A DNA stretch of 53,821 nt. Source: an uncultured Planctomycetia bacterium. Lineage in GTDB: Bacteria; Omnitrophota; Gorgyraeia; Duberdicusellales; 4484-171. The notes under the pieces were generated by a model that saw only the letters and a program-made list of their open reading frames with translations, was not told the DNA's origin and ran no database searches. The DNA lies in assembly GCA_964420965.1 (NCBI GenBank), contig CAYQUQ010000004.1:1252-55072 (forward strand), read 5' to 3'. The position numbers were made by a program, and so were the translations under genes. The stretch's first letter is position 1. Each line of letters starts with the position of its first letter. Of this stretch, positions 1 to 19,520 are shown piece by piece.

Positions 1-1
1 A

Positions 2-199
2 TATAGAGGTCATGAGCAGAATCGTAGTTCATGTTATTTTTTAAGACGTAAAGGCGTAGGCGTAAAGATTAACTTCGGCATAAAAAAAGAAGAGGATATT
101 TTAAAGGGGCATAGCTGGCTTACGCTTGACGGTGAGCCTTACCTTGAAACCGGACGTTTTTACCGGGATTTTAAGGTAATCCATTCCTGTCCTTCCTGA
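2..199 (+). CDS. 3' end of a transglutaminase-like cysteine-protease-fold protein (lasso-peptide B2 / Transglut_core3-like), 5'-truncated by the window edge
   Basis: Not in the ORF track because it is open at the window edge. Frame 2 reads YRGHEQNRSSCYFLRRKGVGVKINFGIKKEEDILKGHSWLTLDGEPYLETGRFYRDFKVIHSCPS, then TGA at 197-199. The pattern LRRxG-x-x-x-x-x-G ... (A/G)H(A/S)W-x3-DG matches my memory of the C-terminal half of PF13471/lasso B2 proteins. Only 65 aa are visible and the expected catalytic Cys lies outside the window. Confidence 0.4.
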   Translation, partial: YRGHEQNRSSCYFLRRKGVGVKINFGIKKEEDILKGHSWLTLDGEPYLETGRFYRDFKVIHSCPS

Positions 200-1425
200 T
201 TCCTTTTTAGCGCCGCCCGGCTGTCTTTATCCCGGGGATTGATCTTTAAGGCCATCCGGTAATATTTTTGGGCCGCTTTTAAGTTACCCCGGATTTTGTA
301 GAGCCCGGCCAGGTTATAGTGACTTTCCGGGAATTGAGGGTGGAGTTTACAGGCTTTCTGGTATTCTTCTTCGGCCTGTTTTAACCGGCCCTGGTGTTCA
401 TAGGCTATCCCCAGATTATTGCGGGCCAAGAGGTGGTCCGGATTGACCCGGATGGCTTTTTTAAGTGTTTTTTCGGCTTCTTTGAACTTATTTTGGTCGC
501 TATAAACCATACCCAGAACAGTTAAAGCATCGGCGTATTCCGGGTCGAGCCGGAGCGACTTTTTTAGATTGAAGACAGCAGCTTGGTAATTTCTTTGTTC
601 CTTATAGACTGCCCCGAGAACAAAGTAGGCATTTTTTAGTTTGCCATTTAATTTTATGGCTTTTTTTAAATATTGGATTGCTTTGTCATCTTCTTTTAAA
701 AAGCTAAAGTAGGTTATACCCACATTGAGATAGCTTAAAGGGTCGTCCGGGGAAGCTACCAGGTATTTAAGCTCGTCACGAAAGTACTTTTTCTGTTTTT
801 TGATGAAATATTTTTCTCCCTTCAGGAATTGAAAATGGTGTATTACGACATCGCAATCCTTAATCGTGGCTTTATTCCTTTTAGTAAAGCCGGGAGCATC
901 TTTGTGGGCGGAATACCTTTCTTCTTTATAGGTTGCTTTTTCTTTTTGAAAAAGCCTTAGGTAGCGGGTGGTGGAGTATCCGGCGCATCCGGAAAGTTTT
1001 TCTTCTTTAAGATATTTCCCGTTATTGGGGCGCCACTGGCGTAGGAGGTCGTAACTTTGGGTGTAGTCCCGCCGGGTGAGAATATAACCCCAGGCCTTTT
1101 TACTTTTGACCAGCTTTTTTAGTTTCGCCAGGTCACCCCTGGCTACAGTTTCATCAGCGTCCAGAACTAATATCCACTTCGAGCCGGCCTTTTTTAAATA
1201 GGTATTCCGCGCCCGGCCCAGGTTTCCGGCTGTCCTGCAGGGAAAGATTTTGGCCCCCAGCCTTCTGGCTATTTTGGTGGTGTTGTCAGACGAACCGGTG
1301 TCGACTACTATGATTTCGGATACTGCCGGTTGCACCGACCGGATAGCCCGGGCGATAAATCGCGCTTCATTTTTTACTATCATGCAGAGTGCGATCGAGT
1401 CTTGAGCAGAGTCTTTCATTGACAT
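160..1425 (-). CDS. Glycosyltransferase family 2 domain fused to C-terminal TPR repeats
   Basis: N-terminus: IALCMIVKNEARFIARAIRSV..IIVVDTGSSDNT..LVLDADE (GT-A fold with a DxD-like DAD). C-terminal ~190 aa holds several 34-aa TPR-like units (AYFVLGAVYKEQRNYQAAVFNLKKSLRLDPEY, GMVYSDQNKFKEAEKTLKKAIRVNPDH, GIAYEHQGRLKQAEEEYQKACKLHPQF, AGLYKIRGNLKAAQKYYRMALKINP). Confidence 0.85.
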   Translation of the reverse strand: MSMKDSAQDSIALCMIVKNEARFIARAIRSVQPAVSEIIVVDTGSSDNTTKIARRLGAKIFPCRTAGNLGRARNTYLKKAGSKWILVLDADETVARGDLAKLKKLVKSKKAWGYILTRRDYTQSYDLLRQWRPNNGKYLKEEKLSGCAGYSTTRYLRLFQKEKATYKEERYSAHKDAPGFTKRNKATIKDCDVVIHHFQFLKGEKYFIKKQKKYFRDELKYLVASPDDPLSYLNVGITYFSFLKEDDKAIQYLKKAIKLNGKLKNAYFVLGAVYKEQRNYQAAVFNLKKSLRLDPEYADALTVLGMVYSDQNKFKEAEKTLKKAIRVNPDHLLARNNLGIAYEHQGRLKQAEEEYQKACKLHPQFPESHYNLAGLYKIRGNLKAAQKYYRMALKINPRDKDSRAALKRNQEGQEWITLKSR

Positions 1426-1447
1426 ACTAGAGACTTATACCTATACT
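1419..1447 (+). promoter_or_regulatory. Sigma70-like promoter, TTGACA-17 nt-TATACT, upstream of the GT4 gene
   Basis: TTGACA at 1419-1424, 17-nt spacer, TATACT at 1442-1447, 41 nt before GTG 1489. The -35 hexamer overlaps the ATG (1423-1425, minus strand) of the divergent GT2-TPR gene. Confidence 0.45.
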
Positions 1448-1488
1448 TTTATATGGTTTATTCTATCATGTTTATGGCGGGGTAAAAA

Positions 1489-2691
1489 GTGAAGATTCAA
1501 TTGCAAAATATACTCTTTTCTCCCTGGGGCAGCGGTATCGGAAATTATTTATATTATGTTTCGAAAACGCTGCTTAAATTGAATCATGAGCCGAGTGTAC
1601 TTTGCGGCCGGCACCGGAAAAATTTAGCCGGGGATGAAGTGTACGAAGGGATCAAGATAGTCCGATACCCTGATTACGCACCGGCAAAGTTGCTTTATTC
1701 GGCCCGGCTTTCGTTTTTATCTGTATTTACCTACCAGAGGAAACTGACCGATTTTATCCGCCGGCGCTCAAGGGATGCCGATGCGATTTGGGCCCGGCAT
1801 CCTTATTGTGCTTATGCTTGCGCGAAAGCCTTTCCGGATAAGCCGCTTATTTATATTCAGGCCGGTGCCTGGCCGAAGGCTTTAAAGAGATTGAACTCAA
1901 TAGCTCCGGGGAGCTGGCGTAGAAAGATTTCTTTTAAGCTGCACAGCTTCCAGAATTATTATATCGAAAAAAAGGCAATTGCAATGAGCAATAAGGTTGT
2001 CGCGCTAAGTACGATTATGAAAAAGGAAATCAGTGAATTTTACCGTTTACCGCCGGATAAAATCATATCCATTCCGCCGGGAGTGGATTTGGAAAGATTT
2101 AAGGCCCGGGAGAAAGATAGTTCTGCCTTAGCCGAGCTGAGCATTCCCGAAGGTTCAAAAATTATTTTATCGGTCTGCCGGCTATCTCCGGAAAAAAATA
2201 TCGTCATGTTGCTGCGTGCTTTCGCCCGGATAGATACTTACGGTATTTACCTGGTTATCGTCGGTGAAGGCCAAGAGAAGGAGCATCTAAAGAGTCTTTC
2301 CCGGGAACTTAAGATAGGGGGGAAGGTAATATTTACCGGACACCGCCGAGATCCGGAAAAATTTTATAATATCGCCGACATATTTGTTCTACCTTCGGTT
2401 TATGAGGGGTTTGGCCATGTATATCTGGAGGCGATGGCTTCGGGGTTACCCTGTGTGGGGTTAAGATCCGATTACCCCAGAGTGGTGGTCGCGACCGAGG
2501 AGATTATCCGTGACGGTGAAACCGGCTATTTAGCAGATCCCGATCAAGTAGAGGATTTATCCGGGAAAATAAAAAGAATTATTTTTGATAATGAATTAAG
2601 GGTAAAGATGGGAGAAGCCGCCCGGAAAGCTTGTGAGCAAAAATACTCCTGGGAAGAGCATGTAAAAAAGATACTTAGATTAACCGGATGA
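1489..2691 (+). CDS. Glycosyltransferase family 4 (GT-B, retaining type)
   Basis: GTG start. C-terminal half has RRDPEKFYNIADIFVLPSVYEGFGHVYLEAMASGLPCVG ... E, the EX7E-type GT4 signature. Confidence 0.85.
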   Translation: MKIQLQNILFSPWGSGIGNYLYYVSKTLLKLNHEPSVLCGRHRKNLAGDEVYEGIKIVRYPDYAPAKLLYSARLSFLSVFTYQRKLTDFIRRRSRDADAIWARHPYCAYACAKAFPDKPLIYIQAGAWPKALKRLNSIAPGSWRRKISFKLHSFQNYYIEKKAIAMSNKVVALSTIMKKEISEFYRLPPDKIISIPPGVDLERFKAREKDSSALAELSIPEGSKIILSVCRLSPEKNIVMLLRAFARIDTYGIYLVIVGEGQEKEHLKSLSRELKIGGKVIFTGHRRDPEKFYNIADIFVLPSVYEGFGHVYLEAMASGLPCVGLRSDYPRVVVATEEIIRDGETGYLADPDQVEDLSGKIKRIIFDNELRVKMGEAARKACEQKYSWEEHVKKILRLTG

Positions 2692-2701
2692 GATTATCTT
2701 A

Positions 2702-2730
2702 TTGACATTTAGCGGATATATTTGTATACT
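2702..2730 (+). promoter_or_regulatory. Sigma70-like promoter, TTGACA-17 nt-TATACT, driving the small peptide ORF
   Basis: TTGACA 2702-2707, 17-nt spacer, TATACT 2725-2730. Followed by AAGGAGG at 2743-2749 and GTG at 2754. Confidence 0.55.
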
Positions 2731-2753
2731 TTATTTAGAAATAAGGAGGTTCA

Positions 2754-2864
2754 GTGACTACAGCCAAAAAGTATATTAAACCTCAGATAAAACGGCAGGG
2801 CAATTTGCGGCGTATAACCCAGCTTTGCCCGGTTGAAAGAGCTCCCCGCAAGAAAAGCCGTTAG
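2754..2864 (+). CDS. 36-aa candidate RiPP precursor with a lasso-type leader motif
   Basis: Hand translation: gtg act aca gcc aaa aag tat att aaa cct cag ata aaa cgg cag ggc aat ttg cgg cgt ata acc cag ctt tgc ccg gtt gaa aga gct ccc cgc aag aaa agc cgt tag = MTTAKKYIKPQIKRQGNLRRITQLCPVERAPRKKSR. It has its own promoter and SD. Y7, P10, I12, G16 and T22 fit the YxxPxLxxxGxxxxxTx spacing of lasso leaders. It sits directly upstream of a PqqD-like RRE gene. It is too short to appear in the ORF track. Confidence 0.55.
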   Translation: MTTAKKYIKPQIKRQGNLRRITQLCPVERAPRKKSR

Positions 2865-2938
2865 GGAAACTTTTAGTTTCTCCCAAGGATCGGCCTTTAA
2901 CTTCCCCTGATAAGAGTTTAAGATTCACCTTTAACTTA

Positions 2939-2967
2939 TTGACATATAATGAGCAGTGGTATACTAT
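2939..2967 (+). promoter_or_regulatory. Sigma70-like promoter upstream of the PqqD-like gene
   Basis: TTGACA 2939-2944. The -10 is either TATACT at 2960-2965 (15-nt spacer) or TACTAT at 2962-2967 (17-nt spacer). AGGAGG at 2976-2981 lies 8 nt before ATG 2990. Confidence 0.4.
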
Positions 2968-2989
2968 ATTTTGAAAGGAGGCTTAAGCT

Positions 2990-3265
2990 ATGCCGGCAGC
3001 ACAAAAATACACAGTGGACAAAGATACCGTGGTTCACCGGATTATTGACGGAGAGGCGGTGATCCTTAATTTGGAAGATGGTTTCTATTACAGCCTGAAC
3101 AGAACAGCTACTTTAATCTGGGAGGCGGTAAACAAAGACAGAAGTTTCGGCGAAATACTGGACTTTTTTAAAAAAGAATACCGGATTTCCGAGGGGCAGT
3201 TAAAAAAGGACATACTGGAATTATTTAAGGACTTGAGCGCCAAGGGATTAATTAAAGACAGGTAA
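2990..3265 (+). CDS. PqqD-family protein (stand-alone RiPP recognition element / peptide chaperone)
   Basis: 91 aa. VVHRIIDGEAVILNLEDGFYYSLNRTATLIWEAVNKDRSFGEILDFFKKEYRISEGQLKKDILELFKDLSAKGLI follows the PqqD pattern (dge.vll....g.yy.LN.ta..iW..l....t..ei...l...y.v......D...fl..L...gli). Confidence 0.8.
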   Translation: MPAAQKYTVDKDTVVHRIIDGEAVILNLEDGFYYSLNRTATLIWEAVNKDRSFGEILDFFKKEYRISEGQLKKDILELFKDLSAKGLIKDR

Positions 3266-3342
3266 ATCTGCGCCGGCAGCCTGCCATCGTCCATTTAGCC
3301 ACGGCCAAGATAAAACCAACTATTTATTTTGAGGCACAAAGT

Positions 3343-4251
3343 ATGTTTCCGGATTTTTTAGGCATCGGCGCGCCCCGCTGCGGCACAAGCTGGTTGTGGG
3401 AAAACCTGCGCTGGCATCCCGATATCTGGATGCCGGCCACTAAAGAAATTCACTATTTTGACCGCCTGGCCAAAGGGTGTTCCGGCAACGTTTTTCAGAA
3501 GCTTTTTGGGCGGCCTAAACATAGCCGGATGTGGCGGCGCTGGATCAGGAAAGAATGGGGTAAGCTCAGGTCGGATTTCGACCGGCAGCGGTTCCTCTGG
3601 GACCTTAAATATTTTTTTGGCGCCTACAATGACGCCTGGTATGCTTCTTTATTTGCTGCCGGTCGAGGCAAGGTAACCGGAGAAATAACGCCTTCCTACT
3701 CAATGCTCGGGCTTAAAGATATAAAACACATTCATGATATCATGCCCGAGATTAAGATTATTTTTTTGATGCGCAATCCGGTAGATATGGTCTGGTCCTT
3801 CATCAAGCTTACTTTTTGTAACCTGCTCGGTAACCCCGTAAGCGCGATTTCTCTGGAAGAGGCATTAAAGAGAGCGGGCCTTAGCGGGGTAGCTTTAATG
3901 TCGAATTATGCGCGAACTTTTAAAAATTGGCTTACTTTTTTTCCTGAACAGCAGTTTTTTATCGGTTTTTTTGAGGAAGTGAAAAACGACCCCGGGGATT
4001 TTCTGTTAAGAATATATAAGTTCCTCGGTGTCCGGGTATCCCGCGAATATTTTCCCGGCCATATCCGGCAGAAGGTTGCCTCCAGCCCGCAACGTGATAT
4101 TCCGCCCGAACTTAAAAAACATCTGTCCGCAAAATATTACCCCCGGATCAAAGAGTTAAGCCTGCTTTTCGGGTCTTACCCGGCTTCATGGCTTAAGGAG
4201 GCAGAAGCTATTTTAGATGAGCCCGGAGTACCCGTAGCCCAATATGGATAA
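3343..4251 (+). CDS. PAPS-dependent sulfotransferase family protein
   Basis: 5'-PSB-like loop GIGAPRCGTSWLWENL near the N-terminus and a 3'-PB-like FLMRNPVDMVWSFIK (RNPxD..xS). Size (302 aa) is typical. Confidence 0.8.
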   Translation: MFPDFLGIGAPRCGTSWLWENLRWHPDIWMPATKEIHYFDRLAKGCSGNVFQKLFGRPKHSRMWRRWIRKEWGKLRSDFDRQRFLWDLKYFFGAYNDAWYASLFAAGRGKVTGEITPSYSMLGLKDIKHIHDIMPEIKIIFLMRNPVDMVWSFIKLTFCNLLGNPVSAISLEEALKRAGLSGVALMSNYARTFKNWLTFFPEQQFFIGFFEEVKNDPGDFLLRIYKFLGVRVSREYFPGHIRQKVASSPQRDIPPELKKHLSAKYYPRIKELSLLFGSYPASWLKEAEAILDEPGVPVAQYG

Positions 4252-5317
4252 TAAGATTCTTCACAATCTGGAACTGCTCGGCCTTATTGCCGGAGAAAAC
4301 AGCGCCGGCATCGAACGCTGCCTGGGGATAAAACAAATAGATTTTAAACATTTTAAAGATTTTGTGGACATCCATCAGTTATCCGGAAATTTATACGTAA
4401 GTCTAGGCCACTCTTCCCTGAAAGGACTTTTTCCCGCCGAGCTGATCGAGCATTTTAAATTCCTCTACACTGAGCAGTGGCTTAAAAACGAGGTGTTGCT
4501 TAGAGAAATCGAAGATTTAGGCCGGGAGTTTGAAAGGAAAAGCCTGGAGGTTTTATTTTTAAAAGGACCTTTTTTTGTCCAGCGTTTTTACGGAGATATC
4601 GACCGCCGGGTGATCAGGGATATCGATATTTTAGTCAGAAAAAAGGATATCGATAAGGCCGATAGAATATTAAGCGCCCGGGGTTTCCGGAGGGATTCAG
4701 CCACGCTGTTTAATAAAAACTTAACCACCTACTTTACCCATCATTTTGAATACTGGAAGGAAGATTTACCCTTAGACCTTCACTGGGCTTTGACCAGCCA
4801 CTTTTCTTTTAATTTAAACTATCCGGAAATATGGGATAAAAAACAACCCTTTATGTTTAAGGGGAGGGTTTTTTACGTTTTAGGCGATGAGTACAAATTA
4901 GTTTTTAGAATTTTGAGCTTGTTTGCCGATATCCAGATCGGTAACCTCTCTTTAAAATCGATTCTGGATACTTACATGATGCTAAGCGCTTTCGGCCGAG
5001 ATGTAGACTGGGAGCAGTTTTTCACCCGGCGCCGGAAAGAGCGGTTGTTCCGGATAGCCTTGAATGTTTTAGATTTAGTCCTGGATATCCTCAATTGCCG
5101 CCGGGATTTCTTAGAGCTTTCCCGGTACCTTGAAGCATCCGGGAAATACATAAAGCACAAGAGCCGGCTCTCTAAATTTGAGCTTCTAAACCGTTCGCGA
5201 TCGGCCTTAAATAATAAGCTTTGGGCCTTTAGTTTATATCAAGGCCCGGTATTTGCATCCTTTTTGTGGTGGACCTTTTCACTCCCCTTTAGAGTAGCCA
5301 TCCATCGCAAGGGATAA
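4244..5317 (+). CDS. Uncharacterised nucleotidyltransferase family protein (PF14907 / NTP_transf_5-like)
   Basis: FLKGPFFVQRFYGDIDRRVIRDIDILVRKKDIDKADRILSARGFRR ... LDLHWAL matches the remembered lKG..l....Y.....R...DiDlLV......a...L...Gy ... lDlH pattern. The start overlaps the sulfotransferase stop by 8 nt. Confidence 0.65.
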   Translation: MDNKILHNLELLGLIAGENSAGIERCLGIKQIDFKHFKDFVDIHQLSGNLYVSLGHSSLKGLFPAELIEHFKFLYTEQWLKNEVLLREIEDLGREFERKSLEVLFLKGPFFVQRFYGDIDRRVIRDIDILVRKKDIDKADRILSARGFRRDSATLFNKNLTTYFTHHFEYWKEDLPLDLHWALTSHFSFNLNYPEIWDKKQPFMFKGRVFYVLGDEYKLVFRILSLFADIQIGNLSLKSILDTYMMLSAFGRDVDWEQFFTRRRKERLFRIALNVLDLVLDILNCRRDFLELSRYLEASGKYIKHKSRLSKFELLNRSRSALNNKLWAFSLYQGPVFASFLWWTFSLPFRVAIHRKG

Positions 5318-5333
5318 TCAGGAAAAACAAGCC

Positions 5334-6311
5334 ATGCCCTGTCTTTCTGTAGTCATCCCGGCTTATAATAGTCAGCAGACTTTAGAAAAATGCCTTAAAG
5401 CCATACGGGAATCTACCTTTAAAGACTATGAGCTTATTGTTGTTGACGGCAAGAGTACCGATAGTACCCGTTTGGTGGCTAAAGAATATGCCGACCGGGT
5501 TATCGCCGTCGGGGCTAATTTTGGCCGCAGCCACAATCGTAATCAAGGCGTTGCCGCCGCCAGCGGAAGAATAGTAGTTAATATTGATGCCGATATAGTT
5601 GTAGAGCCGGATACGCTGCAAAAGATAGCGAATTATTTTTCGGCATACCCGCAAATCAGCGCTTTAAACGGAATTTTAGCCAGGGAGCACCCGCATTTAG
5701 ATTTTTTCAGCCAGTACAAGAATCTTTATATGCATTACCGGTTTTACCGCCTTCCGGAAAGAGTCAATTTCCTCTACGGCTCCTTGCATGCCTTAAGGAG
5801 GGAAGATGTCCAGCCCTATAACGCCAGGATTAAAATAGCCGACGATACGGCTTTAGGCCAGAGCCTGGTGGCCGGGGGGAAAGAAATAGCTTTGGTCAAA
5901 GGTTTGGAGGTAATCCATTTAAAGAAATACAATTTTTTCTCTTTAGTACAGAATGATTTCCAAATTCCTTTTGACTGGGCGAAAATATTCTTAAGCTTTA
6001 AGGGGTTTAAGCAGTTAGGGAGGAATAAAACCGGATTTGCCCACGCTTCCAAGGCCCAATTGATCAGCGTAAGTCTGGCCCCTTTAATCACCGGCCTGCT
6101 TGTTTTGGCTTTAGCCGGCAGTTTCCATTTTTATTTCGGATCGTCTTTTCTTTTGATCTGGTTTTTGTTAAATTACCCTTTTTTTCGTTTTTTGGGCCGG
6201 GAGAAAGGCCTGGCCTTTGCGGCTTTTGCCGTTTTAGTCACTTTCCTGGATAATCTGATTATGGCTTTGGGGATTATTTGCGGAGCTTTAGCCTTTTTAA
6301 TGGGAAAATGA
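5334..6311 (+). CDS. Glycosyltransferase family 2 with C-terminal transmembrane segments
   Basis: LSVVIPAYNSQQTLEKCLKAI..LIVVDGKSTDST..NIDADIVV (GT2 with DxD). The C-terminal ~90 aa is hydrophobic (LISVSLAPLITGLLVLALAG, LLIWFLLNYPFF, AFAAFAVLVTFLDNLIMALGIICGALAFL). Confidence 0.85.
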   Translation: MPCLSVVIPAYNSQQTLEKCLKAIRESTFKDYELIVVDGKSTDSTRLVAKEYADRVIAVGANFGRSHNRNQGVAAASGRIVVNIDADIVVEPDTLQKIANYFSAYPQISALNGILAREHPHLDFFSQYKNLYMHYRFYRLPERVNFLYGSLHALRREDVQPYNARIKIADDTALGQSLVAGGKEIALVKGLEVIHLKKYNFFSLVQNDFQIPFDWAKIFLSFKGFKQLGRNKTGFAHASKAQLISVSLAPLITGLLVLALAGSFHFYFGSSFLLIWFLLNYPFFRFLGREKGLAFAAFAVLVTFLDNLIMALGIICGALAFLMGK

Positions 6312-7693
6312 AAGCCGAGTCTAAAACTTTGATCATTGGAGCAGGCCCCGCGGGGATGGGCTGTGCTTACGCTTTAGCCGAAGCCGGGGTAATACCGTTA
6401 GTAGCCGATAAGGAAAGGGTTGGCGGCGGCCTTTGCCGCACACTTGATTTTAAAGATTTTCGCTTCGACATCGGCGGGCACCGCTTTTTTTCTGCTTCCC
6501 CGGAGGTTAACCGGCTCTGGAAGGATATTCTGGGTGCGGATTTACTCCGGGTCCGAAGGTTATCGCGCATATATTATCGCGATAAATATTTCGATTATCC
6601 GCTTTCTTTCGCCAATACTTTTAAGAACTTAGGCTGGGCGGAAAGTTTATGCTGCGCTACCAACTATTTACAATCCCGGTTTTTACGCCCCGCGGATGAT
6701 AATACCTTCGCCGGATGGACCGTCAATCGTTTCGGTTCCAGATTGTTTAATATTTTTTTTAAGGATTTTACGGAGAAAATCTGGGGCCTGCCTTGCGAGG
6801 ATATTTCTTCGGAGTGGGCCCGGCAGAGGATGCAGGGGCTTTCGCTGAGAGTAGCGGTTCAGAAAGCTTTATCCGGTAATAAAAATTCCGGCCCCAAGAC
6901 ATTATGCGCTGAGTTTTTTTACCCCCGTTTCGGCCCGGGCCAGTTTTACCGCCGTCTGGAAGCTGCTATCGGCAGAAGGGGCGGCAAATTCTCATTTTCG
7001 AAAAAGGTAACTTCCGTCTGGCACGAGGGCAATAAAATCGTAAGTATTAATTTATACGATGGCAACGAAAGTAAAGAAGAGAATTTTGAAGTAAACTATC
7101 TTTTTTCCAGTATGCCTTTATCGTTTCTGGTGAAAAGCTTTAAGCCCTTGCCGCCGGCAGAGGTTGTATCCGCGGCCGAAAATTTGCGGTTCCGCAGTTT
7201 CTTGACCGTAAACGCTATTTTCGATAAAGAGCGTATTTTTCCGGATCAGTGGATATACGTTAATTCTCCCCGGGTGCGGCTGGGCCGGATTCAAAATTAT
7301 AAGAATTGGAGCTTAGGTATGAGCGCTGATTTTAAAAAAACTTCTCTGGGGCTCGAATATTTCTGCAGCCAAGGTGATTCGGTCTGGGCCATGAACGATA
7401 AGGAGTTGATTGCTTACGCGTTAGGCGAACTGGAGAGTTTAGGTATCGTTTCCGGTAAATACTTCCGGGATGGATTTGTCTCCCGCCACGCCGATACTTA
7501 CCCGGTTTATTTACGCGGGTATCAAAAAAATGTTGAAGTTATCCGAAAATACTTAGCTAAGTTTTCCAACCTTCAGACTATCGGCCGGGCCGGCCTTTTC
7601 CGCTACGATAATTCCGACCACGCCCTCCTAACCGGCATACATGCCGCCAGAAATTTTCTCGGCCAAAGCAGCAGTGATATCTGGAAGATTTAA
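6308..7693 (+). CDS. FAD/NAD(P)-binding oxidoreductase (amine-oxidase / protoporphyrinogen-oxidase-like fold)
   Basis: Dinucleotide-binding motif LIIGAGPAGMGCAYALAEAG...VADKERVGG, then DIGGHRFF. I prefer the ATG at 6308 (ATGA overlap with the upstream TGA 6309-6311) to the track start at 6278. Confidence 0.7.
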   Translation: MKAESKTLIIGAGPAGMGCAYALAEAGVIPLVADKERVGGGLCRTLDFKDFRFDIGGHRFFSASPEVNRLWKDILGADLLRVRRLSRIYYRDKYFDYPLSFANTFKNLGWAESLCCATNYLQSRFLRPADDNTFAGWTVNRFGSRLFNIFFKDFTEKIWGLPCEDISSEWARQRMQGLSLRVAVQKALSGNKNSGPKTLCAEFFYPRFGPGQFYRRLEAAIGRRGGKFSFSKKVTSVWHEGNKIVSINLYDGNESKEENFEVNYLFSSMPLSFLVKSFKPLPPAEVVSAAENLRFRSFLTVNAIFDKERIFPDQWIYVNSPRVRLGRIQNYKNWSLGMSADFKKTSLGLEYFCSQGDSVWAMNDKELIAYALGELESLGIVSGKYFRDGFVSRHADTYPVYLRGYQKNVEVIRKYLAKFSNLQTIGRAGLFRYDNSDHALLTGIHAARNFLGQSSSDIWKI

Positions 7694-7696
7694 GGA

Positions 7697-9346
7697 TTAA
7701 CGCTTTTTAAGTTTCATGGCCCAGATGCCCGGCGGCCCGGAATAGAACTTTTCCACGTTAATATCGGCCCGCTTTTCAAATTGCGCTTTGATTTTTTTCA
7801 ATTTCCGGCGCCAGCGCCTTTCGGAAATTATATACCAGGCATAGTCGTATCCGGGTTCGACGCCGGTTTTAGCCAGCCAGTCGAAAGAAATATCTTCATT
7901 TTTTACCTTTTTTATCCAGGGGATAGCCGAGAACCGGCGTTCATGCTCGAAAACCAGGAAAGAACGCCGGTTCATGACCAGGGATACTTTATCGCCGGCC
8001 GTTGTTTCTTTCTGGATTCTTTTCAGCAGTCCGCGCATTGATTCCATATTTTGTCCGTAAAGCAGTATTCTTCCCGTACGGTATATATTGGGCAGGAGTA
8101 AAAAAACCATCAGCAGGATCAGGAATTTATTCTCCTTTCTTTTATCTCTTTTGGTTACGATGCAAGTGTAGAAGTGCTTTACGACGATAAAAAAAGAGGT
8201 GAATAAAACCGGGCTTATAAAGAGGTTGTGGCGTAGCGGCCCGACCGGATATATTCCCAGCGTTGATAAGACTACACAGGCAGTTATCGAATAGAGCATC
8301 ACCCCTAAGACCACGCTGTTTAAGGTATCTTTGCGGCGGATAAACACTCCCAAGGCAAGGAATGAATAGATCAGAACCCCCCCCGCGATTATTAAAAGCG
8401 GAGAACCGAGGCTGAACTGGGGAATTATTAAATATATTCTTCCGGCATTAAACAGCTGCCAGGATATCATCGAAGGCAGGAAACTCATAATTTCCAAAGA
8501 GTAATATTTTAAGCTATGGTGGAAGGTGTACTTTAGATAGAAGAGATAATTGGTAAAGCTGTACTTGGTAAATATATCCTTAAACTCAAGGCCGCGGCTA
8601 AAAATATGAATGTTAAATATAGAAACAACATATAAGGCCGCAATAATCAGGGGGGTTAGCAATAAGGCTGTTTTAAGAATCTTTACCGATGCGGAGTCAA
8701 CCTTGCTTTTTATGGTATGGATGACTAATACGGCAACGGTGAAAGGAAAGAAAATGCCGTAGCCGTATCCGGAAGACAGCCCGAGTAAAAAACTTAAAAG
8801 CATCCAGAGGTAGTATTTATCTCTTTTGCCTTTGGCCTTTATGATTTTAAGTAGCAACAAAAGAGTTAGCGCCGAGCAGAATATTTCCAGTGAGTAGGAT
8901 CGTAATTCGATCGAATAGTAGAACCAGGTAGCATTTAAAGCGCAAAAGAGGACAAAAGCAATCCGCCATTTTTTTGAAAACCCGCACACTTTGGCCATAA
9001 AATACATGAGGTATATGGCTCCTAAGTTAAACAGCAAAGGAATCAACCTTAACCACAATGTGCTGTTGGATATTTTTGACCAGTAATGTATTATTAAGGT
9101 AAAGAGAGGAGACCCCAGGAGCCATCGGGAAGTATTGTAAAGCAGGGATTTTAGCTGCGTATCTTGATGTATGAAGTCAAGCGGGCCGTTGTAAGACGGC
9201 GTTATCCCTTTGGCAATCCAGAATTGGCGGGCTTCGTCGATCCAGAAACCGTAGGTATTAAGGGCCACGATTCGAAATCCCAGCCAGAGCAGGATAAGCA
9301 GCAAGATAAGTTTTTTAGCTTTGTCATTATATAAAAAAGCTTTCAT
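7697..9346 (-). CDS. Polytopic membrane glycosyltransferase, GT-C fold (ArnT / PMT_2-like)
   Basis: 549 aa with more than 10 hydrophobic helices. First-loop motif FWIDEARQFWIAKG resembles the DE-containing loop of GT39/GT83 enzymes. Soluble C-terminal ~110 aa. Confidence 0.65.
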   Translation of the reverse strand: MKAFLYNDKAKKLILLLILLWLGFRIVALNTYGFWIDEARQFWIAKGITPSYNGPLDFIHQDTQLKSLLYNTSRWLLGSPLFTLIIHYWSKISNSTLWLRLIPLLFNLGAIYLMYFMAKVCGFSKKWRIAFVLFCALNATWFYYSIELRSYSLEIFCSALTLLLLLKIIKAKGKRDKYYLWMLLSFLLGLSSGYGYGIFFPFTVAVLVIHTIKSKVDSASVKILKTALLLTPLIIAALYVVSIFNIHIFSRGLEFKDIFTKYSFTNYLFYLKYTFHHSLKYYSLEIMSFLPSMISWQLFNAGRIYLIIPQFSLGSPLLIIAGGVLIYSFLALGVFIRRKDTLNSVVLGVMLYSITACVVLSTLGIYPVGPLRHNLFISPVLFTSFFIVVKHFYTCIVTKRDKRKENKFLILLMVFLLLPNIYRTGRILLYGQNMESMRGLLKRIQKETTAGDKVSLVMNRRSFLVFEHERRFSAIPWIKKVKNEDISFDWLAKTGVEPGYDYAWYIISERRWRRKLKKIKAQFEKRADINVEKFYSGPPGIWAMKLKKR

Positions 9347-9377
9347 AAAATAATGAATATAATTCGCCTGTAAAATT

Positions 9378-9406
9378 ATGTTACGCTACAGCATTTGTAC
9401 TGTCAA
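9378..9406 (-). promoter_or_regulatory. Candidate promoter for the minus-strand GT-C gene
   Basis: On the minus strand: TTGACA (complement of 9401-9406), 17-nt spacer, TAACAT (complement of 9378-9383), about 30 nt upstream of the start at 9346. Confidence 0.35.
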
Positions 9407-9410
9407 GGGA

Positions 9411-9439
9411 TTAACATCCTCCCCTTTAAGTGATATAAT
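9411..9439 (+). promoter_or_regulatory. Extended -10 promoter placed to give a leaderless transcript of the next gene
   Basis: TTAACA 9411-9416, 17-nt spacer ending in TG (9431-9432), TATAAT 9434-9439. The ATG of the downstream gene starts at 9446, only 6 nt after the -10, and no SD sequence lies between them. Confidence 0.45.
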
Positions 9440-9445
9440 CCTTTC

Positions 9446-10729
9446 ATGAGAAAAAAAAACATTTTACTGCTGATCGTTTTTGCGGGGGTACTGCTTCGGT
9501 CGGGGGTGGTATTTTTTTCATCCGTACCTTATTCCCGGGTAATTCCCGATTTAAAGAAGTATGATCATATTGCTCAGAATATAGCTTTTAAAGGAATTTA
9601 CTCTCAGGATTCGCCGCAAACCCTTAAGCCTGAACCCACCGCGGTATACCCCCCGGTATATCCGGGCCTCCTGGCGGCAATATACCGTTTCTGCGGCTAT
9701 AAACCGATTTTAGCCGTTTATCTGAACATTATTTTTTACATAACTGCCTGTATGGTTATTTTTAAATTAGGCCGTTTGCTTTTTGATGAGACAACCGGCT
9801 TAATCGGTGTTCTTTTTTTTACCCTTGAGCCCGTGGTACTTATTTATTCCATTATACCCATTCCGGATATATGTATTGGTCTGCTGTTGCCTTTAAGCCT
9901 TTATTTTTTAATAAAATTCCTGAACCAGAATCCCCGCGGTAAGGTTTATTACCGCTACCTTATCTTAGCCAACATCACCCTGGCCTTAGGCATATTGACC
10001 AAGCCGGTAGTATTTTATTTCCCCTTCCTGATCGTTTTATTTATTCTTTCCTATTGGAAAAAAAATATGCGTAAAGCCGTTTTAGCTTCCGGCCTTACCC
10101 TGATTCTGACGGGGCTGGCTATTTCCCCCTGGCTGGTGAGAAATTATAGGATTTGGAATAAGGTTCGCTTTGTCACCACCGGCGGGTTTATTGCTCCCCG
10201 GAAGTCGGCTATTCTTGAAAAGGTTAACCGCACGCAGGGGCAGCTTCGCGATCATCCTTCAGCCTTGATGAATCGAACTGTTGCTTATGTTTTCGGTACG
10301 GGCACAATAACCTTTTACCGGATGTTTGACCCCGGCGATAATCTACAGGAATACTACCAGCGCCACAAAGAGCAGTTTTTAAAAAAGGCGGGTTCGAAAA
10401 GACATAACATTTTTAAGGGGCCGCTTATAAGTGATTACCTGAGAATTTTTAATTTTTCCCGTAAGTTCGCTGTGCTTGAATTCTTATTTTTGGGTATTTT
10501 ATTAATTACATACCTGTTTGCATTACTGGGGGTGTTTTTTGCCTTTAAATTTAGAAAAAGGCGGGAATTACTGGTAGCTGCTTTGGGGATTATTTATTTT
10601 TCGGCCACTATAATCGTGGCCATAAGCGCTAACAGCCGGTACCGCCTTCCGGCGATACCTTTTTACGCTATCCTTGCCGGTTACGGGGTGAAAAACCTTG
10701 TTTTTCCCCGGAATAAAAACCGGGTTTAA
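9446..10729 (+). CDS. Polytopic membrane glycosyltransferase, GT-C fold (ArnT / PMT_2-like), second copy
   Basis: 427 aa with ~10 hydrophobic helices. The N-terminal loop PDLKKYDHIAQNIAFKG resembles the pDa..Y...A.n...g.g loop of PMT_2-type enzymes. Confidence 0.6.
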   Translation: MRKKNILLLIVFAGVLLRSGVVFFSSVPYSRVIPDLKKYDHIAQNIAFKGIYSQDSPQTLKPEPTAVYPPVYPGLLAAIYRFCGYKPILAVYLNIIFYITACMVIFKLGRLLFDETTGLIGVLFFTLEPVVLIYSIIPIPDICIGLLLPLSLYFLIKFLNQNPRGKVYYRYLILANITLALGILTKPVVFYFPFLIVLFILSYWKKNMRKAVLASGLTLILTGLAISPWLVRNYRIWNKVRFVTTGGFIAPRKSAILEKVNRTQGQLRDHPSALMNRTVAYVFGTGTITFYRMFDPGDNLQEYYQRHKEQFLKKAGSKRHNIFKGPLISDYLRIFNFSRKFAVLEFLFLGILLITYLFALLGVFFAFKFRKRRELLVAALGIIYFSATIIVAISANSRYRLPAIPFYAILAGYGVKNLVFPRNKNRV

Positions 10730-10731
10730 AA

Positions 10732-11877
10732 ATGTTTTTTAAGGCTAAAGCTATTGCCGTCAATACCGAAGAATTGATTTTGATTTCGGCCCGGCATAAA
10801 TCGGATAGCCGGCTGTCGGAGCGGGCCGTCAATTTGATCAAAGCCGGCGTAGACTGGGCTTACTTCAGCAATTTTATACTCGAAAATAAAATTGTCGGCT
10901 CGGCTTATAACTTGCTGGAGTTTTGCGGCCGGTCGGCCAATATCCCCCCAGCCGTGCTTAGCCGTTTAAGGTCAGCTAATCTCTTCCTGGCTTACAAGAT
11001 AACTCTGCATCACCAAAAGCTCAAAGAGATTTTAAAATTATTTTATGGGCACGATATCGCTGTTGTGCCGCTAAAGGGGACAATTCTATCCCGGCGGCTT
11101 TACGGAGAAGTTAGCGCCCGCGGTTTAAGTGTTGATTTTGATTTCTTTATCGCGGCAAAAGACCGGGGTCGGGTGCAGGCTTTGCTGGAGAAGGAAGGGT
11201 TTTCGCTTTCCTCTCACCCCCGGGAGGAATTATTGGGATCGGCGATTTTTAGCCGGTCCAATTCAGAAATAATTGATTTACACTGGAGTATGTTGACGCC
11301 GTTTTATTGCCCCTCTGAAAGGCTCGCCGGGTTTTTAAAATCCCGGCGGCTGGTGGAGGAGGAAGGGGTGAAGTATTATGAGTTTAAGGAGGAAGAGCTA
11401 TTACTTTATCTTTCCGCACACCTGGCCAGCAGCAGCTGTTTTGGGCGCTTACGGGATATTGGCGATATAAAGGCATTTTTAGATAAATACCGCGGCCGGC
11501 TTAATTGGCCCAGCTTAATGGTTAAGGCCCGGGAGTGGAGGCTATCCAGTTCCCTATATGCCGCTCTTAAGCTTTCCGGGAAGCTTTTTTCTTCTGATCT
11601 GCCGTCCGGAGTCCCGGGTAAATTAAGACCCGGCTCCTTAAAGCTGATTTTGATCAGAGCAGTTACCGCTAAAAAGATTATTTTGGGGAGAGAGTTAAAG
11701 AGGCAAAAAGTTATCGTCCGGCTTTTCAGGTTCGTATTGTTTCGGCTGATCGAATCCCGTTCGCTCCGGGATTATATAAAGACTTTATTCCCGCCTAAAC
11801 AGCTTATAAAAAGCCGTTCTTATTTGTCCCGGATTTTTAAGGCCCTCACCAGATTTTTCCGGGTCTTATCGGCCTGA
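10732..11877 (+). CDS. Second PF14907 / NTP_transf_5-like nucleotidyltransferase family protein
   Basis: PLKGTILSRRLYGEVSARGLSVDFDFFIAAKDRGRVQALLEKEGFSL ... IDLHWSM parallels the 4244-5317 product motif for motif. Confidence 0.6.
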   Translation: MFFKAKAIAVNTEELILISARHKSDSRLSERAVNLIKAGVDWAYFSNFILENKIVGSAYNLLEFCGRSANIPPAVLSRLRSANLFLAYKITLHHQKLKEILKLFYGHDIAVVPLKGTILSRRLYGEVSARGLSVDFDFFIAAKDRGRVQALLEKEGFSLSSHPREELLGSAIFSRSNSEIIDLHWSMLTPFYCPSERLAGFLKSRRLVEEEGVKYYEFKEEELLLYLSAHLASSSCFGRLRDIGDIKAFLDKYRGRLNWPSLMVKAREWRLSSSLYAALKLSGKLFSSDLPSGVPGKLRPGSLKLILIRAVTAKKIILGRELKRQKVIVRLFRFVLFRLIESRSLRDYIKTLFPPKQLIKSRSYLSRIFKALTRFFRVLSA

Positions 11878-12216: not shown

Positions 12217-12411
12217 GTGAAAGATAAGATCTACCGCACAAAAGAAGTGCTCCGAATAGTGGGGATTTCCCGGGCCACCCTTTACAATTGGTTTCGGGAT
12301 AAGAAGGTCAGGGATGTATCCCGGGACCGCAATGATTTTCGTATTTTTACCGACGCGGATATTGCCAGGATTTTAGCTTATAAGAATTTAATCAGACATT
12401 CACCCCGTTAA
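12217..12411 (+). CDS. Small MerR/excisionase-type helix-turn-helix protein, copy 1
   Basis: 64 aa. YRTKEVLRIVGISRATLYNWFRDKKV is a typical HTH_17/MerR-like N-terminal HTH. GTG start. Confidence 0.7.
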   Translation: MKDKIYRTKEVLRIVGISRATLYNWFRDKKVRDVSRDRNDFRIFTDADIARILAYKNLIRHSPR

Positions 12412-12598
12412 AAAGCTGATGAAGTCAGATAAGATCTACCGCACAAAAGAAGTGCTCCGAATAGTGGGGATTTCCCGGGCCACCCTTTACAATTGGTTTC
12501 GGGATAAGAAGGTCAGGGATGTATCCCGGGACCGCAATGATTTTCGTATTTTTACCGACGCGGATATTGCCAGGATTTTAGCTTACAAGAATTTAATC
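12223..12598. repeat. Tandem direct duplication: 171-bp unit, 205-bp period, 1 mismatch
   Basis: 12223-12393 and 12428-12598 are identical except t12381 versus c12586 (synonymous, Tyr codon). Each unit covers almost the whole small HTH gene. Confidence 0.9.
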
Positions 12599-19485: not shown

Positions 19486-19520
19486 TTTGCCGGACAAATT
19501 GAGAAACTCAGGAGGCATAA

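What the first reader, a model, noticed from the sequence alone, without database searches (positions are those of the whole stretch)
2..11877. Cyclase-less lasso-like tailoring module (RRE, sulfotransferase, two PF14907 nucleotidyltransferases, B2-like fragment) embedded in a glycan locus
Downstream of the candidate precursor, under a second promoter, lie three genes. They are a stand-alone PqqD-type RRE (2990), a PAPS-type sulfotransferase (3343) and a PF14907-like nucleotidyltransferase (4244, with an overlapping start). A second PF14907 paralogue sits at 10732. A transglutaminase/B2-like gene end sits at 2-199.

No asparagine-synthetase-like lasso cyclase, HPr-kinase-like gene or McjD-type exporter is visible anywhere in the 53.8 kb. 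The module is interleaved with glycosyltransferases (GT2-TPR, GT4, GT2, two GT-C).

Two points come from memory only. First, sulfotransferases and PF14907 enzymes were noted as recurrent lasso tailoring genes, and a PF14907-type enzyme was reported to extend a phosphorylated C-terminal Ser of a Bacillus lasso peptide with sugar. Second, PqqD-like plus PF14907 cassettes of unknown function have been catalogued next to exosortase-type EPS loci.

My inference is that a leader-guided system decorates a short cationic peptide by sulfation and/or nucleotidyl or phosphoglycosyl transfer. The peptide may be linked to, or may prime or regulate, the glycan made by the rest of the locus. That would be an undescribed peptide-glycan hybrid or non-lasso RiPP class.
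Basis: partly seen in the sequence, partly recalled or inferred. Interest (0 to 1): 0.8.

Follow-up and report, generated by a model that had tools for sequence, protein, structure and literature searches.

The report
Cyclase-less lasso-related glycopeptide gene cluster
This is a real gene cluster that makes a short, positively charged ribosomal peptide and probably decorates it with sugars, using lasso-peptide-type machinery without the ring-forming enzyme; it is a new variant of a peptide family first described in 2026.

Summary
The 36-codon ORF at 2754-2864 is a genuine precursor gene. It has its own promoter-like site and ribosome-binding site. It carries a lasso/LPP-type RRE-binding motif and is conserved in three syntenic metagenomic loci, with an invariant TQLCP[VI]E core.

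No lasso cyclase lies in the window, in 9.8 kb upstream on a 99.98%-identical contig, or in the syntenic loci. The missing HPr-kinase-like gene and MsbA-type exporter sit just upstream of the window. The "B2 fragment" is the C-terminal domain of a rare B12-radical-SAM::B2 fusion protein.

The gene set (RRE, HprK-like kinase, PF14907 transferase, ABC exporter, no cyclase, inside a polysaccharide locus) matches the Linear Polyphosphorylated Peptides (LPP) of Popov et al. 2026. That family was reported only from Bacillota. This cluster differs in four ways:
- A B2 peptidase fused to a B12-rSAM replaces the SpI peptidase.
- Cys replaces the phosphorylated Ser3.
- A SunS/ThuS-like GT2-TPR glycosyltransferase always flanks the precursor gene.
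- Sulfotransferases are present, and are fused to pathway enzymes in relatives.

Verdict: a new variant of a known kind. The chemistry is inferred, not shown.

The parts
2..199 (+). Last 65 codons of a 660-aa B12-binding radical SAM::lasso-B2 (transglutaminase-like Cys peptidase) fusion gene. The window holds only the His and acidic part of the putative triad.
   Evidence: PF13471 hit. The full protein on the 99.98%-identical contig has Radical_SAM + Transglut_core3 and reaches the NCBIfam lasso_biosyn_B2 cutoff (34.3 vs 33). CxxxCxxC, Cys598, His632 and an acidic residue at His+12 are conserved in 10 homologues.
160..1425 (-). SunS/ThuS-like GT2-TPR glycosyltransferase (called gene 160-1419, 419 aa), divergent from the precursor operon. 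Proposed peptide glycosyltransferase.
   Evidence: Pfam GT2 + TPR. The best PDB sequence hits of the GT2 domain are GmaR, SunS and ThuS. The AF2 model (pLDDT 92.6) has SunS 7msn and ThuS 7msk as its only full-length fold matches. Orthologues at 44-56% identity flank the precursor gene in L032-L037.
1419..1447 (+). Promoter-like site TTGACA-17-TATACT ahead of the GT4 gene.
1489..2691 (+). GT4 glycosyltransferase immediately upstream of the precursor gene.
   Evidence: PF00534/PF13439. A GT4 gene sits next to the RRE or precursor in L028, L033, L034 and L035.
2702..2730 (+). Promoter-like site TTGACA-17-TATACT ahead of the precursor gene.
2754..2864 (+). Precursor peptide gene (GTG start): MTTAKKYIKPQIKRQGNLRRITQLCPVERAPRKKSR. 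The leader carries YxxPxI...G.....T. The predicted core is (Q)LCPVERAPRKKSR.
   Evidence: This is the only match to the lasso leader pattern in the six-frame window. It is conserved, with RBS and many synonymous changes, in L032, L033 and L034 and aligns with peptides of L035-L037, L028 and L007.
2939..2967 (+). Promoter-like site ahead of the RRE-sulfotransferase-PF14907 operon.
2990..3265 (+). Discrete PqqD-type RiPP recognition element (lasso B1 / LppB-like).
   Evidence: PF05402. The best NCBIfam matches are the lasso PqqD chaperone models. PDB hits: TbiB1 1e-7, 9x90_B, 9x8z_B, TfuB1. Orthologues at 39-61% identity in L032-L034.
3343..4251 (+). PAPS-type sulfotransferase.
   Evidence: PF00685/PF13469. 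In relatives, sulfotransferase domains are fused to the SpI-like peptidase domain (L028) and to PF14907 (P0026).
4244..5317 (+). PF14907 nucleotidyltransferase-fold enzyme NT1 (LppN/PsmN-like).
   Evidence: PF14907 1.3e-43. 84 homologues, found in loci that also encode HprK-like and PqqD proteins. The AF2 model (pLDDT 94.4) resembles MenT1, ANT(2'')-Ia, LnuA and FKRP.
5334..6311 (+). GT2 with a hydrophobic C-terminal region by inspection. Part of a conserved NT1-GT2-FAD oxidoreductase triad.
   Evidence: PF00535. 55-58% identical orthologues lie next to NT1 in L020 and near it in L028.
6308..7693 (+). FAD amine-oxidase / UDP-galactopyranose-mutase-like oxidoreductase (PRK07208 family).
   Evidence: Orthologues in L020 and L033.
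7697..9346 (-). 549-aa multi-pass membrane protein, possibly GT-C-like (assignment not confirmed).
   Evidence: Only weak, sub-threshold TMEM260-like/TgpA_N hits.
9446..10729 (+). PMT_2 / PMT family GT-C glycosyltransferase.
   Evidence: PF13231, PF02366. PMT genes also flank the RRE or the fusion gene in L028 and L033.
10732..11877 (+). Second PF14907 enzyme (NT2).
   Evidence: PF14907 9.4e-44.

Best explanation
This is a biosynthetic gene cluster for a linear (non-lasso) ribosomal peptide. It is related to lasso peptides and to the Linear Polyphosphorylated Peptides (LPP), and it sits inside an XrtA/PEP-CTERM-like exopolysaccharide locus.

**Shown by sequence**
- A 33-37-aa cationic precursor carries a lasso/LPP-type leader, [Y]xxPQ[IV]xxxGxLRx[IM]T.
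- An invariant Q-L-C-P-[VI]-E-[KR] segment and a basic tail follow the leader.
- The accompanying genes are a discrete RRE, a bifunctional-looking B12-rSAM::B2 protein, a SunS/ThuS-like GT2-TPR glycosyltransferase next to the precursor gene, a GT4, an HprK-like kinase, PF14907 enzymes, sulfotransferases and an MsbA-like exporter.
- There is no lasso cyclase.

**Inferred mechanism**
1. The RRE binds the YxxPxI motif and presents the peptide to the partner enzymes.
2. The B12-rSAM domain modifies the conserved LCPVE segment, probably by C-methylation.
3. The fused B2 domain removes the leader at or just after the conserved Thr-Gln.
4. The SunS-like GT2-TPR glycosylates the invariant Cys. This Cys occupies the position of the phosphorylated Ser3 of LPP; relatives have Ser there.
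5. The sugar or residue is then elaborated by GT4/GT2, the HprK-like kinase, PF14907 (phospho-sugar or nucleotidyl transfer) and the sulfotransferases.
6. The anionic glyco-decorated cationic peptide is exported by the ABC transporter. It may be glycosylated further outside the cytoplasm by the membrane GT2 plus PMT-type pair.
For: **The precursor is real**
- It has a promoter-like site and an RBS and is the only leader-motif hit in the window.
- Four orthologous peptides show 8-11 synonymous codon changes within a 24-codon conserved block, and TQLCP[VI]E is invariant.
- The Tyr-to-Thr spacing (15 residues) equals that of lasso (-17/-2) and LPP (-16/-1) leaders.

**RRE**
- It is lasso/LPP-type.

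**No cyclase**
- There is no SGGxDS ORF in the window or in 9.8 kb upstream.
- The only AsnB-like protein in a syntenic locus is a true Gln-amidotransferase: TIGR01536 scores 496 against a cutoff of 267, and the lasso cyclase model is below its cutoff. The Metabacillus control cyclase behaves the opposite way.

**Upstream genes**
- HprK-like kinase, MsbA-like exporter and B12-rSAM::B2.
- The fusion is conserved at 41-51% identity, with intact rSAM and Cys/His/acidic motifs.
- It co-occurs with CP[VI]E-type cores only.

**GT2-TPR**
- It matches SunS/ThuS by sequence and by fold.
- It is the most conserved enzyme after the RRE and is always adjacent to the precursor gene.

**Rosetta-stone fusions in relatives**
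- Sulfotransferase-SpI (L028) and PF14907-sulfotransferase (P0026).

**Precedent**
- LPP BGCs in capsule loci have the core RRE/HprK/NTP-transferase/MsbA and no cyclase (PMC13381572).
- In a lasso system the kinase phosphorylates Ser and PF14907 adds hexoses to the phosphate (PMC8498205).
Against: - No chemistry is shown. Every enzyme-substrate assignment is inferred from adjacency, fusions and fold.
- The upstream genes come from a 99.98%-identical contig, not from the window's own record. The first 27 nt of the window diverge from that contig.
- The cores of L033 and L034 contain no Ser or Thr, so the known activity of the HprK-like kinases (Ser phosphorylation) has no obvious acceptor in the peptide. 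The kinase may act on a sugar instead, or on Cys.
- SunS and ThuS work without an RRE, on helical disulfide-containing peptides.
- Many glycosyltransferases in the locus surely serve the polysaccharide.
- PF14907 (LppN) showed no activity in the only LPP reconstitution.
- In several NT1-containing loci (L008, L016, L021, L025) I found no precursor by motif search.
Confidence: 0.55

Rival explanations
1. It is a plain member of the LPP family. The peptide is only (poly)phosphorylated by the HprK-like kinase and cleaved. All glycosyltransferases and sulfotransferases belong to the surrounding exopolysaccharide pathway.
For: The core gene set (RRE, HprK-like, PF14907, MsbA-like, no cyclase, polysaccharide-locus context) is the one described for LPP. 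The downstream genes are XrtA/PEP-CTERM-like EPS export machinery.
Against: - No SpI peptidase is present; a B2::rSAM fusion takes its place.
- LPP Ser3 is Cys here, and the cores of L033 and L034 have no Ser or Thr.
- The GT2-TPR is conserved at 44-56% identity and always abuts the precursor gene across otherwise rearranged loci.
- Sulfotransferase fusions to SpI and to PF14907 occur in relatives.
Confidence: 0.2
2. It is a peptide-primed glycan. The ribosomal peptide is the covalent primer or cap on which the locus's sulfated or phosphorylated glycan is built, giving a peptide-polysaccharide hybrid rather than a small glycopeptide.
For: - The module is embedded between an initiating Bac_transf gene and Wzc/Wza-like export genes.
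- Relatives have minimal peptides that end right at the modifiable residue: TQLS*, TQME*, TQMSA*.
- PMT-type GT-C genes are recurrent next to the RRE.
- The LPP authors also note the capsule-locus context and an unidentified final product.
Against: A dedicated MsbA-like exporter and a leader peptidase suggest a discrete small product. Nothing shows a link between the peptide and the polymer. The Bac_transf gene indicates that ordinary lipid-linked initiation exists.
Confidence: 0.15
3. The class-defining step is a radical-SAM crosslink, for example a thioether between the invariant Cys and Glu of CPVE (ranthipeptide-like). Glycosylation would be peripheral.
For: Cys and Glu are invariant, two residues apart. 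An rSAM/SPASM gene lies upstream, and every syntenic locus has at least one extra rSAM.
Against: The accessory rSAM/SPASM proteins are not orthologous between loci. Only the B12-binding rSAM fused to B2 is conserved, and that class is known chiefly for methylation (established knowledge).
Confidence: 0.07
4. It is an ordinary lasso peptide cluster whose cyclase lies elsewhere.
For: A lasso-type leader, B1 and B2 are present.
Against: - There is no cyclase within -9.8 kb to +51 kb or in three syntenic loci.
- Glu would be at core position 5 or 6, not 7-9.
- The cores of L033 and L034 are only 10-11 residues long.
Confidence: 0.02

Closest known systems
Linear Polyphosphorylated Peptides (LPP; lppA-K-B-S-D-N) of Bacillota, Popov et al., Nat Commun 2026 (PMC13381572)
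   Same: - Cyclase-less and RRE-dependent.
- HprK-like kinase, uncharacterised NTP transferase and MsbA-like exporter.
- Embedded in polysaccharide loci.
- Precursor has a YxxPx[V/I] motif and a conserved Thr 15 residues after the Tyr.
- The final product is unknown there too.
   Different: [quoted passage not shown]
- Cys replaces the phosphorylated Ser3.
- Precursors are short (33-37 aa).
- A SunS-like GT2-TPR, a GT4 and sulfotransferases are conserved or fused parts.
- Named relatives of its proteins come from non-Bacillota MAGs, whereas LPP was stated to be restricted to Bacillota.
Paeninodin / pseudomycoidin-type lasso peptide clusters (Firmicutes)
   Same: Leader motif, discrete B1 RRE, B2 peptidase domain, HPr-kinase homologue, PF14907 nucleotidyltransferase, sulfotransferase and ABC exporter (PMC8498205).
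   Different: There is no Asn-synthetase-like cyclase. The core cannot form a 7-9-membered macrolactam. There is no conserved C-terminal Ser. B2 is fused to a B12-rSAM.
Glycocins made by SunS/ThuS S-glycosyltransferases (sublancin, thurandacin)
   Same: A two-domain GT-A + TPR-like glycosyltransferase of about 420 aa with the same overall fold. An invariant Cys in the peptide is a candidate acceptor.
   Different: There is no double-glycine leader or C39 ABC transporter, and no disulfide-stapled helical hairpin. An RRE, kinase, PF14907 and rSAM are present. Sequence identity to SunS is only 17-20%.
HprK-related kinase A/B families (TIGR04352, TIGR04355). Their cassette context with PqqD-like proteins near exosortase-type EPS loci is from my own knowledge, not tested here.
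   Same: The upstream kinase's best NCBIfam matches are HprK_rel_A and HprK_rel_B. The EPS genes downstream best match XrtA/PEP-CTERM models.
   Different: All scores are far below the family cutoffs (54 vs 200 bits). No exosortase gene is in the window.

Membership tests
Lasso peptide BGC | Precursor with a YxxPxL...T(-2) leader | tested here: met
   YIKPQI...T, with Tyr-to-Thr spacing of 15 residues.
Lasso peptide BGC | RRE (B1) and Cys-peptidase (B2) | tested here: met
   The PqqD protein best matches the lasso PqqD chaperone models. The B2 domain reaches the NF033537 cutoff in the full-length fusion.
Lasso peptide BGC | Asn-synthetase-like macrolactam cyclase (C) | tested here: not met
   There is no SGGxDS ORF or cyclase homologue in the window, in 9.8 kb upstream, or in L032 and L034. 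The L033 AsnB-like protein is a true amidotransferase.
Lasso peptide BGC | Core with Asp/Glu at position 7-9 and enough length for ring, loop and tail | tested here: not met
   Glu is at position 5 (cleavage after TQ) or 6 (after T). The L033 and L034 cores are 10-11 aa.
LPP (Popov et al. 2026) | Discrete RRE + HprK-like kinase + NTP transferase + MsbA-like exporter, without cyclase | tested here: met
   The RRE and PF14907 are in the window. The kinase and exporter are on the 99.98%-identical contig just upstream.
LPP (Popov et al. 2026) | Archaeal-type signal peptidase I (LppS) as leader peptidase | tested here: not met
   There is no SpI/S24 homologue in the window. Upstream there is only a weak (E 0.006) SpI-like segment, with Cys in place of the catalytic Ser, inside a GNAT fusion. 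Relatives L007, L028 and L036 do carry SpI-like domains.
LPP (Popov et al. 2026) | Precursor motif YxxPxVLxHQxIxFETxxS with phospho-acceptor Ser3 | tested here: not met
   YxxPxI and the Thr are present at the same spacing, but position +3 is an invariant Cys. The cores of L033 and L034 have no Ser or Thr.
LPP (Popov et al. 2026) | Polyphosphorylation of the peptide | not testable with these tools
   This needs mass spectrometry of the product.
Glycocin (SunS-type S-glycopeptide) | SunS-family GT-A + TPR-like glycosyltransferase | tested here: inconclusive
   SunS and ThuS are the top full-length fold matches (TM 0.55-0.56, E 6e-14) and SunS and ThuS are sequence hits of the GT2 domain. However, TIGR04195 scores only 45 against a cutoff of 350.
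Glycocin (SunS-type S-glycopeptide) | Disulfide-stapled helix-loop-helix peptide, double-Gly leader and C39-ABC exporter | tested here: not met
   The peptide has a single Cys, a 10-14-aa core and a lasso-type leader. The upstream exporter gene is only 571 codons with ABC_membrane and ABC_tran as its only listed domains, so no C39 domain is indicated.
HprK-related kinase A family (TIGR04352) | Kinase scoring above the TIGR04352 cutoff | tested here: not met
   Best hit 54.5 bits against a cutoff of 200.

The most novel reading that the evidence does not exclude
The ribosomal peptide is the covalent primer or cap of the locus's glycan. A leader-guided pathway attaches sugar to Cys (or Ser) at core position 3, and the chain is extended, phosphorylated and sulfated. 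The result would be a bacterial proteoglycan-like RiPP-exopolysaccharide hybrid, released by a peptidase that is physically coupled to a B12-radical-SAM enzyme.
Probability: 0.15. Interest if true: 0.85.

Novelty: new variant of a known kind. Interest (0 to 1): 0.62.

Why it matters
- **Taxonomic reach.** The closest named relatives of its proteins come from Omnitrophota, Elusimicrobiota, Nitrospirota and Gemmatimonadota MAGs. That would extend the newly described cyclase-less, lasso-derived LPP-type logic beyond Bacillota.
- **Interchangeable peptidases.** The leader peptidase appears to be interchangeable between SpI and B2.
- **A new fusion.** A B12-radical-SAM::B2 fusion was not found described in the searched library. 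It implies coupling of a radical modification to leader removal.
- **A link to glycosylation.** The conserved pairing of the precursor with a SunS-like glycosyltransferase, plus sulfotransferase fusions, gives a concrete and testable route to the unknown final products of LPP-like pathways. It also bears on why these pathways sit in polysaccharide loci.
- **A search handle.** The invariant TQLCP[VI]E core is a simple pattern for genome mining and mutagenesis.

Tried and rejected
**Searches that gave little**
- A genome-contig scan with the single NT1 protein found nothing.
- The 46-sequence alignment was too diverse to make search patterns.
- The 12-sequence alignment gave only 4 genome loci and 16 metagenome loci.
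- A motif search found no convincing precursor in L008, L016, L021, L025 or L014. Their peptides, if any, remain unidentified.
- An exact look-up of the 421-aa GT2-TPR ORF failed, because the called gene starts two codons later.
- The B2 domain alone found no PDB relative by sequence, so the triad was judged from conservation only.
- I could not display the LppB alignment, because designed repeat proteins crowded the listing. The equivalence of RRE Asn37 and Asp73 to LppB N33 and D70 is therefore only suggested.

**Ideas rejected**
- An RNA hairpin or attenuator after the precursor gene: z-score +0.98.
- The rSAM/SPASM as a conserved maturase: the accessory rSAMs are not orthologous across loci.
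- The L033 AsnB-like protein as a cyclase.
- The leader motif alone as proof: it is expected 0.125 times per window by chance.

Full report
**1. Observation**

- Pfam and NCBIfam give:
  - a Transglut_core3/lasso-B2 C-terminus at 2-199;
  - GT2+TPR at 160-1425(-);
  - GT4 at 1489-2691;
  - a 91-aa PqqD protein at 2990-3265, whose best NCBIfam models are the two lasso PqqD chaperones;
  - a sulfotransferase at 3343-4251;
  - PF14907 proteins at 4244-5317 and 10732-11877;
  - a GT2 at 5334-6311;
  - an FAD amine-oxidase-like protein, with start about 6308;
  - a PMT_2 GT-C at 9446-10729.
- The membrane ORF at 7697-9346(-) has only sub-threshold hits, so its GT-C assignment is not confirmed.
- Promoter-like TTGACA-17-TATACT sites precede the GT4 gene (1419) and the small ORF (2702). 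A third promoter-like site starts at 2939, ahead of the PqqD gene.
- The small ORF at 2754-2864 has an AAGGAGG ribosome-binding site.

**2. What lies beyond the window edge**

- The PqqD protein is encoded on 19 public contigs.
- The longest one retrieved (JGI Ga0117905_1000138, 133 kb) is 99.98% identical to the window from base 28 onward.
- Only the first 27 window bases differ, so this looks like a contig-end artefact.
- Reading that contig from the window edge outward:
  - the rest of the "B2" gene, which is a 660-aa B12-binding radical SAM::B2 fusion;
  - an HprK-like kinase (best NCBIfam match HprK_rel_A; P-loop GPQYSGKST);
  - a second GT2-TPR;
  - a second sulfotransferase;
  - an rSAM/SPASM protein;
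  - a 571-aa MsbA-like ABC exporter;
  - a Bac_transf initiating transferase;
  - a GNAT fusion;
  - another rSAM.

**3. No cyclase**

- No ORF with the Asn-synthetase PP-loop motif exists in the window or in the 9.8 kb upstream.
- A bona fide lasso cluster retrieved as a distant hit (Metabacillus indicus, L015) served as a positive control. It shows the motif, a WxxPxL precursor ending in Ser, and a protein whose best NCBIfam model is the lasso cyclase.
- One syntenic locus (L033) has an AsnB-like gene, but it is not a cyclase:
  - it starts MCGICG;
  - it passes the glutamine-hydrolysing asparagine synthase model (496 bits against a cutoff of 267);
  - it best matches the XrtA-system amidotransferase.

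**4. The precursor is real**

- The lasso leader pattern Y..P.[LIVM]...G.....T occurs once in the six-frame window, in this ORF.
- By chance it is expected 0.125 times per window, so the pattern alone is not proof.
- Homologues of the B12-rSAM::B2 fusion (P0091-P0099, 41-51% identity) led to three syntenic loci, L032-L034. Each has an RBS-preceded small ORF next to the GT2-TPR gene:
  - MSKNSRYTKPQVKRQGKLRLITQLCPVERAPRKKTSK
  - MKNKKKYSTPQIRLRGNLRLMTQLCPIEKQRRK
  - MKNKRKYTTPQIKLRGNLRLMTQLCPVEKKRKN
- These compare with the window peptide MTTAKKYIKPQIKRQGNLRRITQLCPVERAPRKKSR.
- Within a 24-codon block the genes differ at 16-30 of 72 nucleotides, with 8-11 synonymous codon changes per pair. This indicates selection on the peptide sequence.

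**5. Closest known system**

- A full-text search found Popov et al., Nat Commun 2026 (PMC13381572). They describe Linear Polyphosphorylated Peptides (LPP):
  - The clusters have no cyclase and sit inside capsular polysaccharide loci of Bacillota.
  - Precursors carry YxxPxVLxHQxIxFETxxS. They are cleaved after Thr(-1) and polyphosphorylated on Ser3.
  - The NTP transferase was inactive in the heterologous host.
  - The final product is unknown.
  - The family is said to be restricted to Bacillota.
- The window cluster shares the RRE, kinase, NTP transferase, exporter, no-cyclase and glycan-locus logic.
- It also shares the Tyr-to-Thr spacing. Under LPP numbering the window's Thr22 is -1 and Cys25 is +3.
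  - the kinase phosphorylates the C-terminal Ser;
  - PF14907 adds hexoses to that phosphate in pseudomycoidin;
  - sulfotransferase genes occur in such clusters.

**6. How it differs from LPP**

(a) *Peptidase.*
- No SpI homologue is in the window.
- The peptidase is instead a B2 domain fused to a B12-rSAM.
- CxxxCxxC, Cys598, His632 and an acidic residue at His+12 are conserved in all ten family members.
- Among 85 representatives matching the B2 fragment in 1.84 billion proteins, nearly all are stand-alone proteins of 110-180 aa. Only two are of fusion size.

(b) *Acceptor residue.*
- Position +3 is an invariant Cys.
- The cores of L033 and L034 have no Ser or Thr at all.

(c) *A SunS-like glycosyltransferase.*
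- The best PDB sequence matches of the GT2 domain are the protein and peptide glycosyltransferases GmaR, SunS and ThuS.
- Its AF2 model (pLDDT 92.6) has SunS (7msn; 402 aligned columns, TM 0.56) and ThuS (7msk) as the only full-length fold matches.
- Orthologues at 44-56% identity abut the precursor gene in L032-L037.

(d) *Sulfotransferases.*
- In relatives they are fused to pathway enzymes: sulfotransferase-SpI in L028 and PF14907-sulfotransferase in P0026 from an Omnitrophota MAG.

(e) *Taxonomy.*
- The named relatives come from Omnitrophota, Elusimicrobiota, Nitrospirota and Gemmatimonadota MAGs.
- The EPS genes downstream best match XrtA/PEP-CTERM export components, below their cutoffs.
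- The window's own organism was not identified.

**7. A wider family**

- GT2-TPR and NT1 relatives define sister loci whose peptides share [YW]xxPx[ILV]xxxGN[LM]Rx[ILM]TQ[LM] and end at or just after position +3:
  - ...TQLS* in L035, with HprK and GT4;
  - ...TQME* in L036, from Elusimicrobiota, with an SpI-like peptidase and an RRE;
  - ...TQMSA* in L037, with PF14907 and an RRE.
- L007 and L028 carry SpI-like domains, an RRE, HprK, NT1 and Lys-rich peptides.
- An HMM of the kinases finds one in almost every sufficiently long related locus.
- The extended CP[VI]E[KR]-plus-basic-tail core co-occurs only with the B12-rSAM::B2 fusion. This points to that segment as the substrate of the rSAM domain.
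- The accessory rSAM/SPASM genes are not orthologous between loci.

**8. Mechanism**

*Shown:* the parts list, its conservation and the motif spacing.

*Inferred:*
- The RRE binds the leader.
- The B12-rSAM domain modifies the LCPVE segment.
- The B2 domain removes the leader.
- The SunS-like GT glycosylates Cys25 (Ser in relatives).
- GT4/GT2, the HprK-like kinase, PF14907 and the sulfotransferases elaborate the sugar.
  - The PF14907 (NT1) fold is nearest to ANT(2'')-Ia, LnuA, MenT1 and FKRP. These enzymes nucleotidylylate hydroxyls or transfer phospho-alcohols.
- The ABC exporter secretes the product.
- The conserved membrane GT2 plus FAD-oxidoreductase plus PMT-type set may add sugars outside the cytoplasm.

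*Main weakness:* none of this chemistry is demonstrated, and the kinase lacks an obvious peptide acceptor.

**9. Verdict**

- The locus is a new variant of a recently described kind rather than a new class.
- It has features not found described in the searched library: the B12-rSAM::B2 fusion, the SunS-like GT pairing, the invariant Cys core, and relatives outside Bacillota.
- It also offers a testable link between LPP-like peptides and glycan chemistry.

Noticed in passing
window 12217-12411 and 12419-12613: There is a tandem duplication of a 64-aa HTH gene (weak MerR_1 hit in the contig's gene table). The two copies are nearly identical. The otherwise 99.98%-identical contig L001 carries only one copy.
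   Followed up: partly
window 1-27: The first 27 bases do not align with the longer near-identical contig. Another public contig (L003/L011) also ends within about 20 nt of this point. This suggests a recurrent assembly break inside the B12-rSAM::B2 gene.
   Followed up: partly
window 29570-34614 and 38502-39890: There are five further radical SAM genes in the glycan part of the locus: two plain rSAMs, two B12-binding rSAMs, and one with an N-terminal SPASM-like domain. No RRE or precursor was looked for next to them.
   Followed up: no
window 28375-29573: A GT9 heptosyltransferase-like gene appears split into two overlapping ORFs (28375-29073 and 28989-29573). Only the second has a Pfam hit. 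This may be a frameshift or a pseudogene.
   Followed up: no
window 12610-12978 and 18463-19485: A 122-aa ORF listed with a PilZ hit in the contig's gene table and a protein weakly resembling a c-di-GMP phosphodiesterase response regulator flank the EPS export genes. This hints at c-di-GMP control of the locus.
   Followed up: no
window 12984-24685: There are three Wzc-like chain-length/tyrosine-kinase sets, a Wza-like exporter and an ExeA-like ATPase. Their best matches are XrtA/PEP-CTERM models, all below the cutoffs. No exosortase gene was noticed in the window.
   Followed up: partly
L010 19598-20491 (-), about 9 kb upstream of window position 1: A 297-aa protein has a C-terminal GNAT domain. 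Its N-terminal segment weakly resembles the SpI-like leader peptidases (E 0.006), but with CMFP in place of the catalytic SMxP.
   Followed up: partly
L028 8502-9743 (-); P0026 (L012): Two domain fusions occur in relatives. One joins a sulfotransferase (PF03567) to an S24/SpI-like peptidase domain. The other joins PF14907 to a sulfotransferase in an Omnitrophota MAG.
   Followed up: partly
L015 (Metabacillus indicus LMG 22858, NZ_JGVU02000002.1): A canonical paeninodin-like lasso cluster (cyclase, WxxPxL precursor ending in Ser, PF14907, ABC) lies about 10 kb from a second set (SpI-like peptidase, HprK-like kinase, PF14907, ABC). This is the lasso + LPP co-localisation described by Popov et al..
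   Followed up: partly
L008 7882-9369: In one NT1/HprK locus, two DUF6627 proteins, a C39 peptidase and a TPR protein lie directly upstream of NT1. This may be a different precursor and processing arrangement.
   Followed up: no
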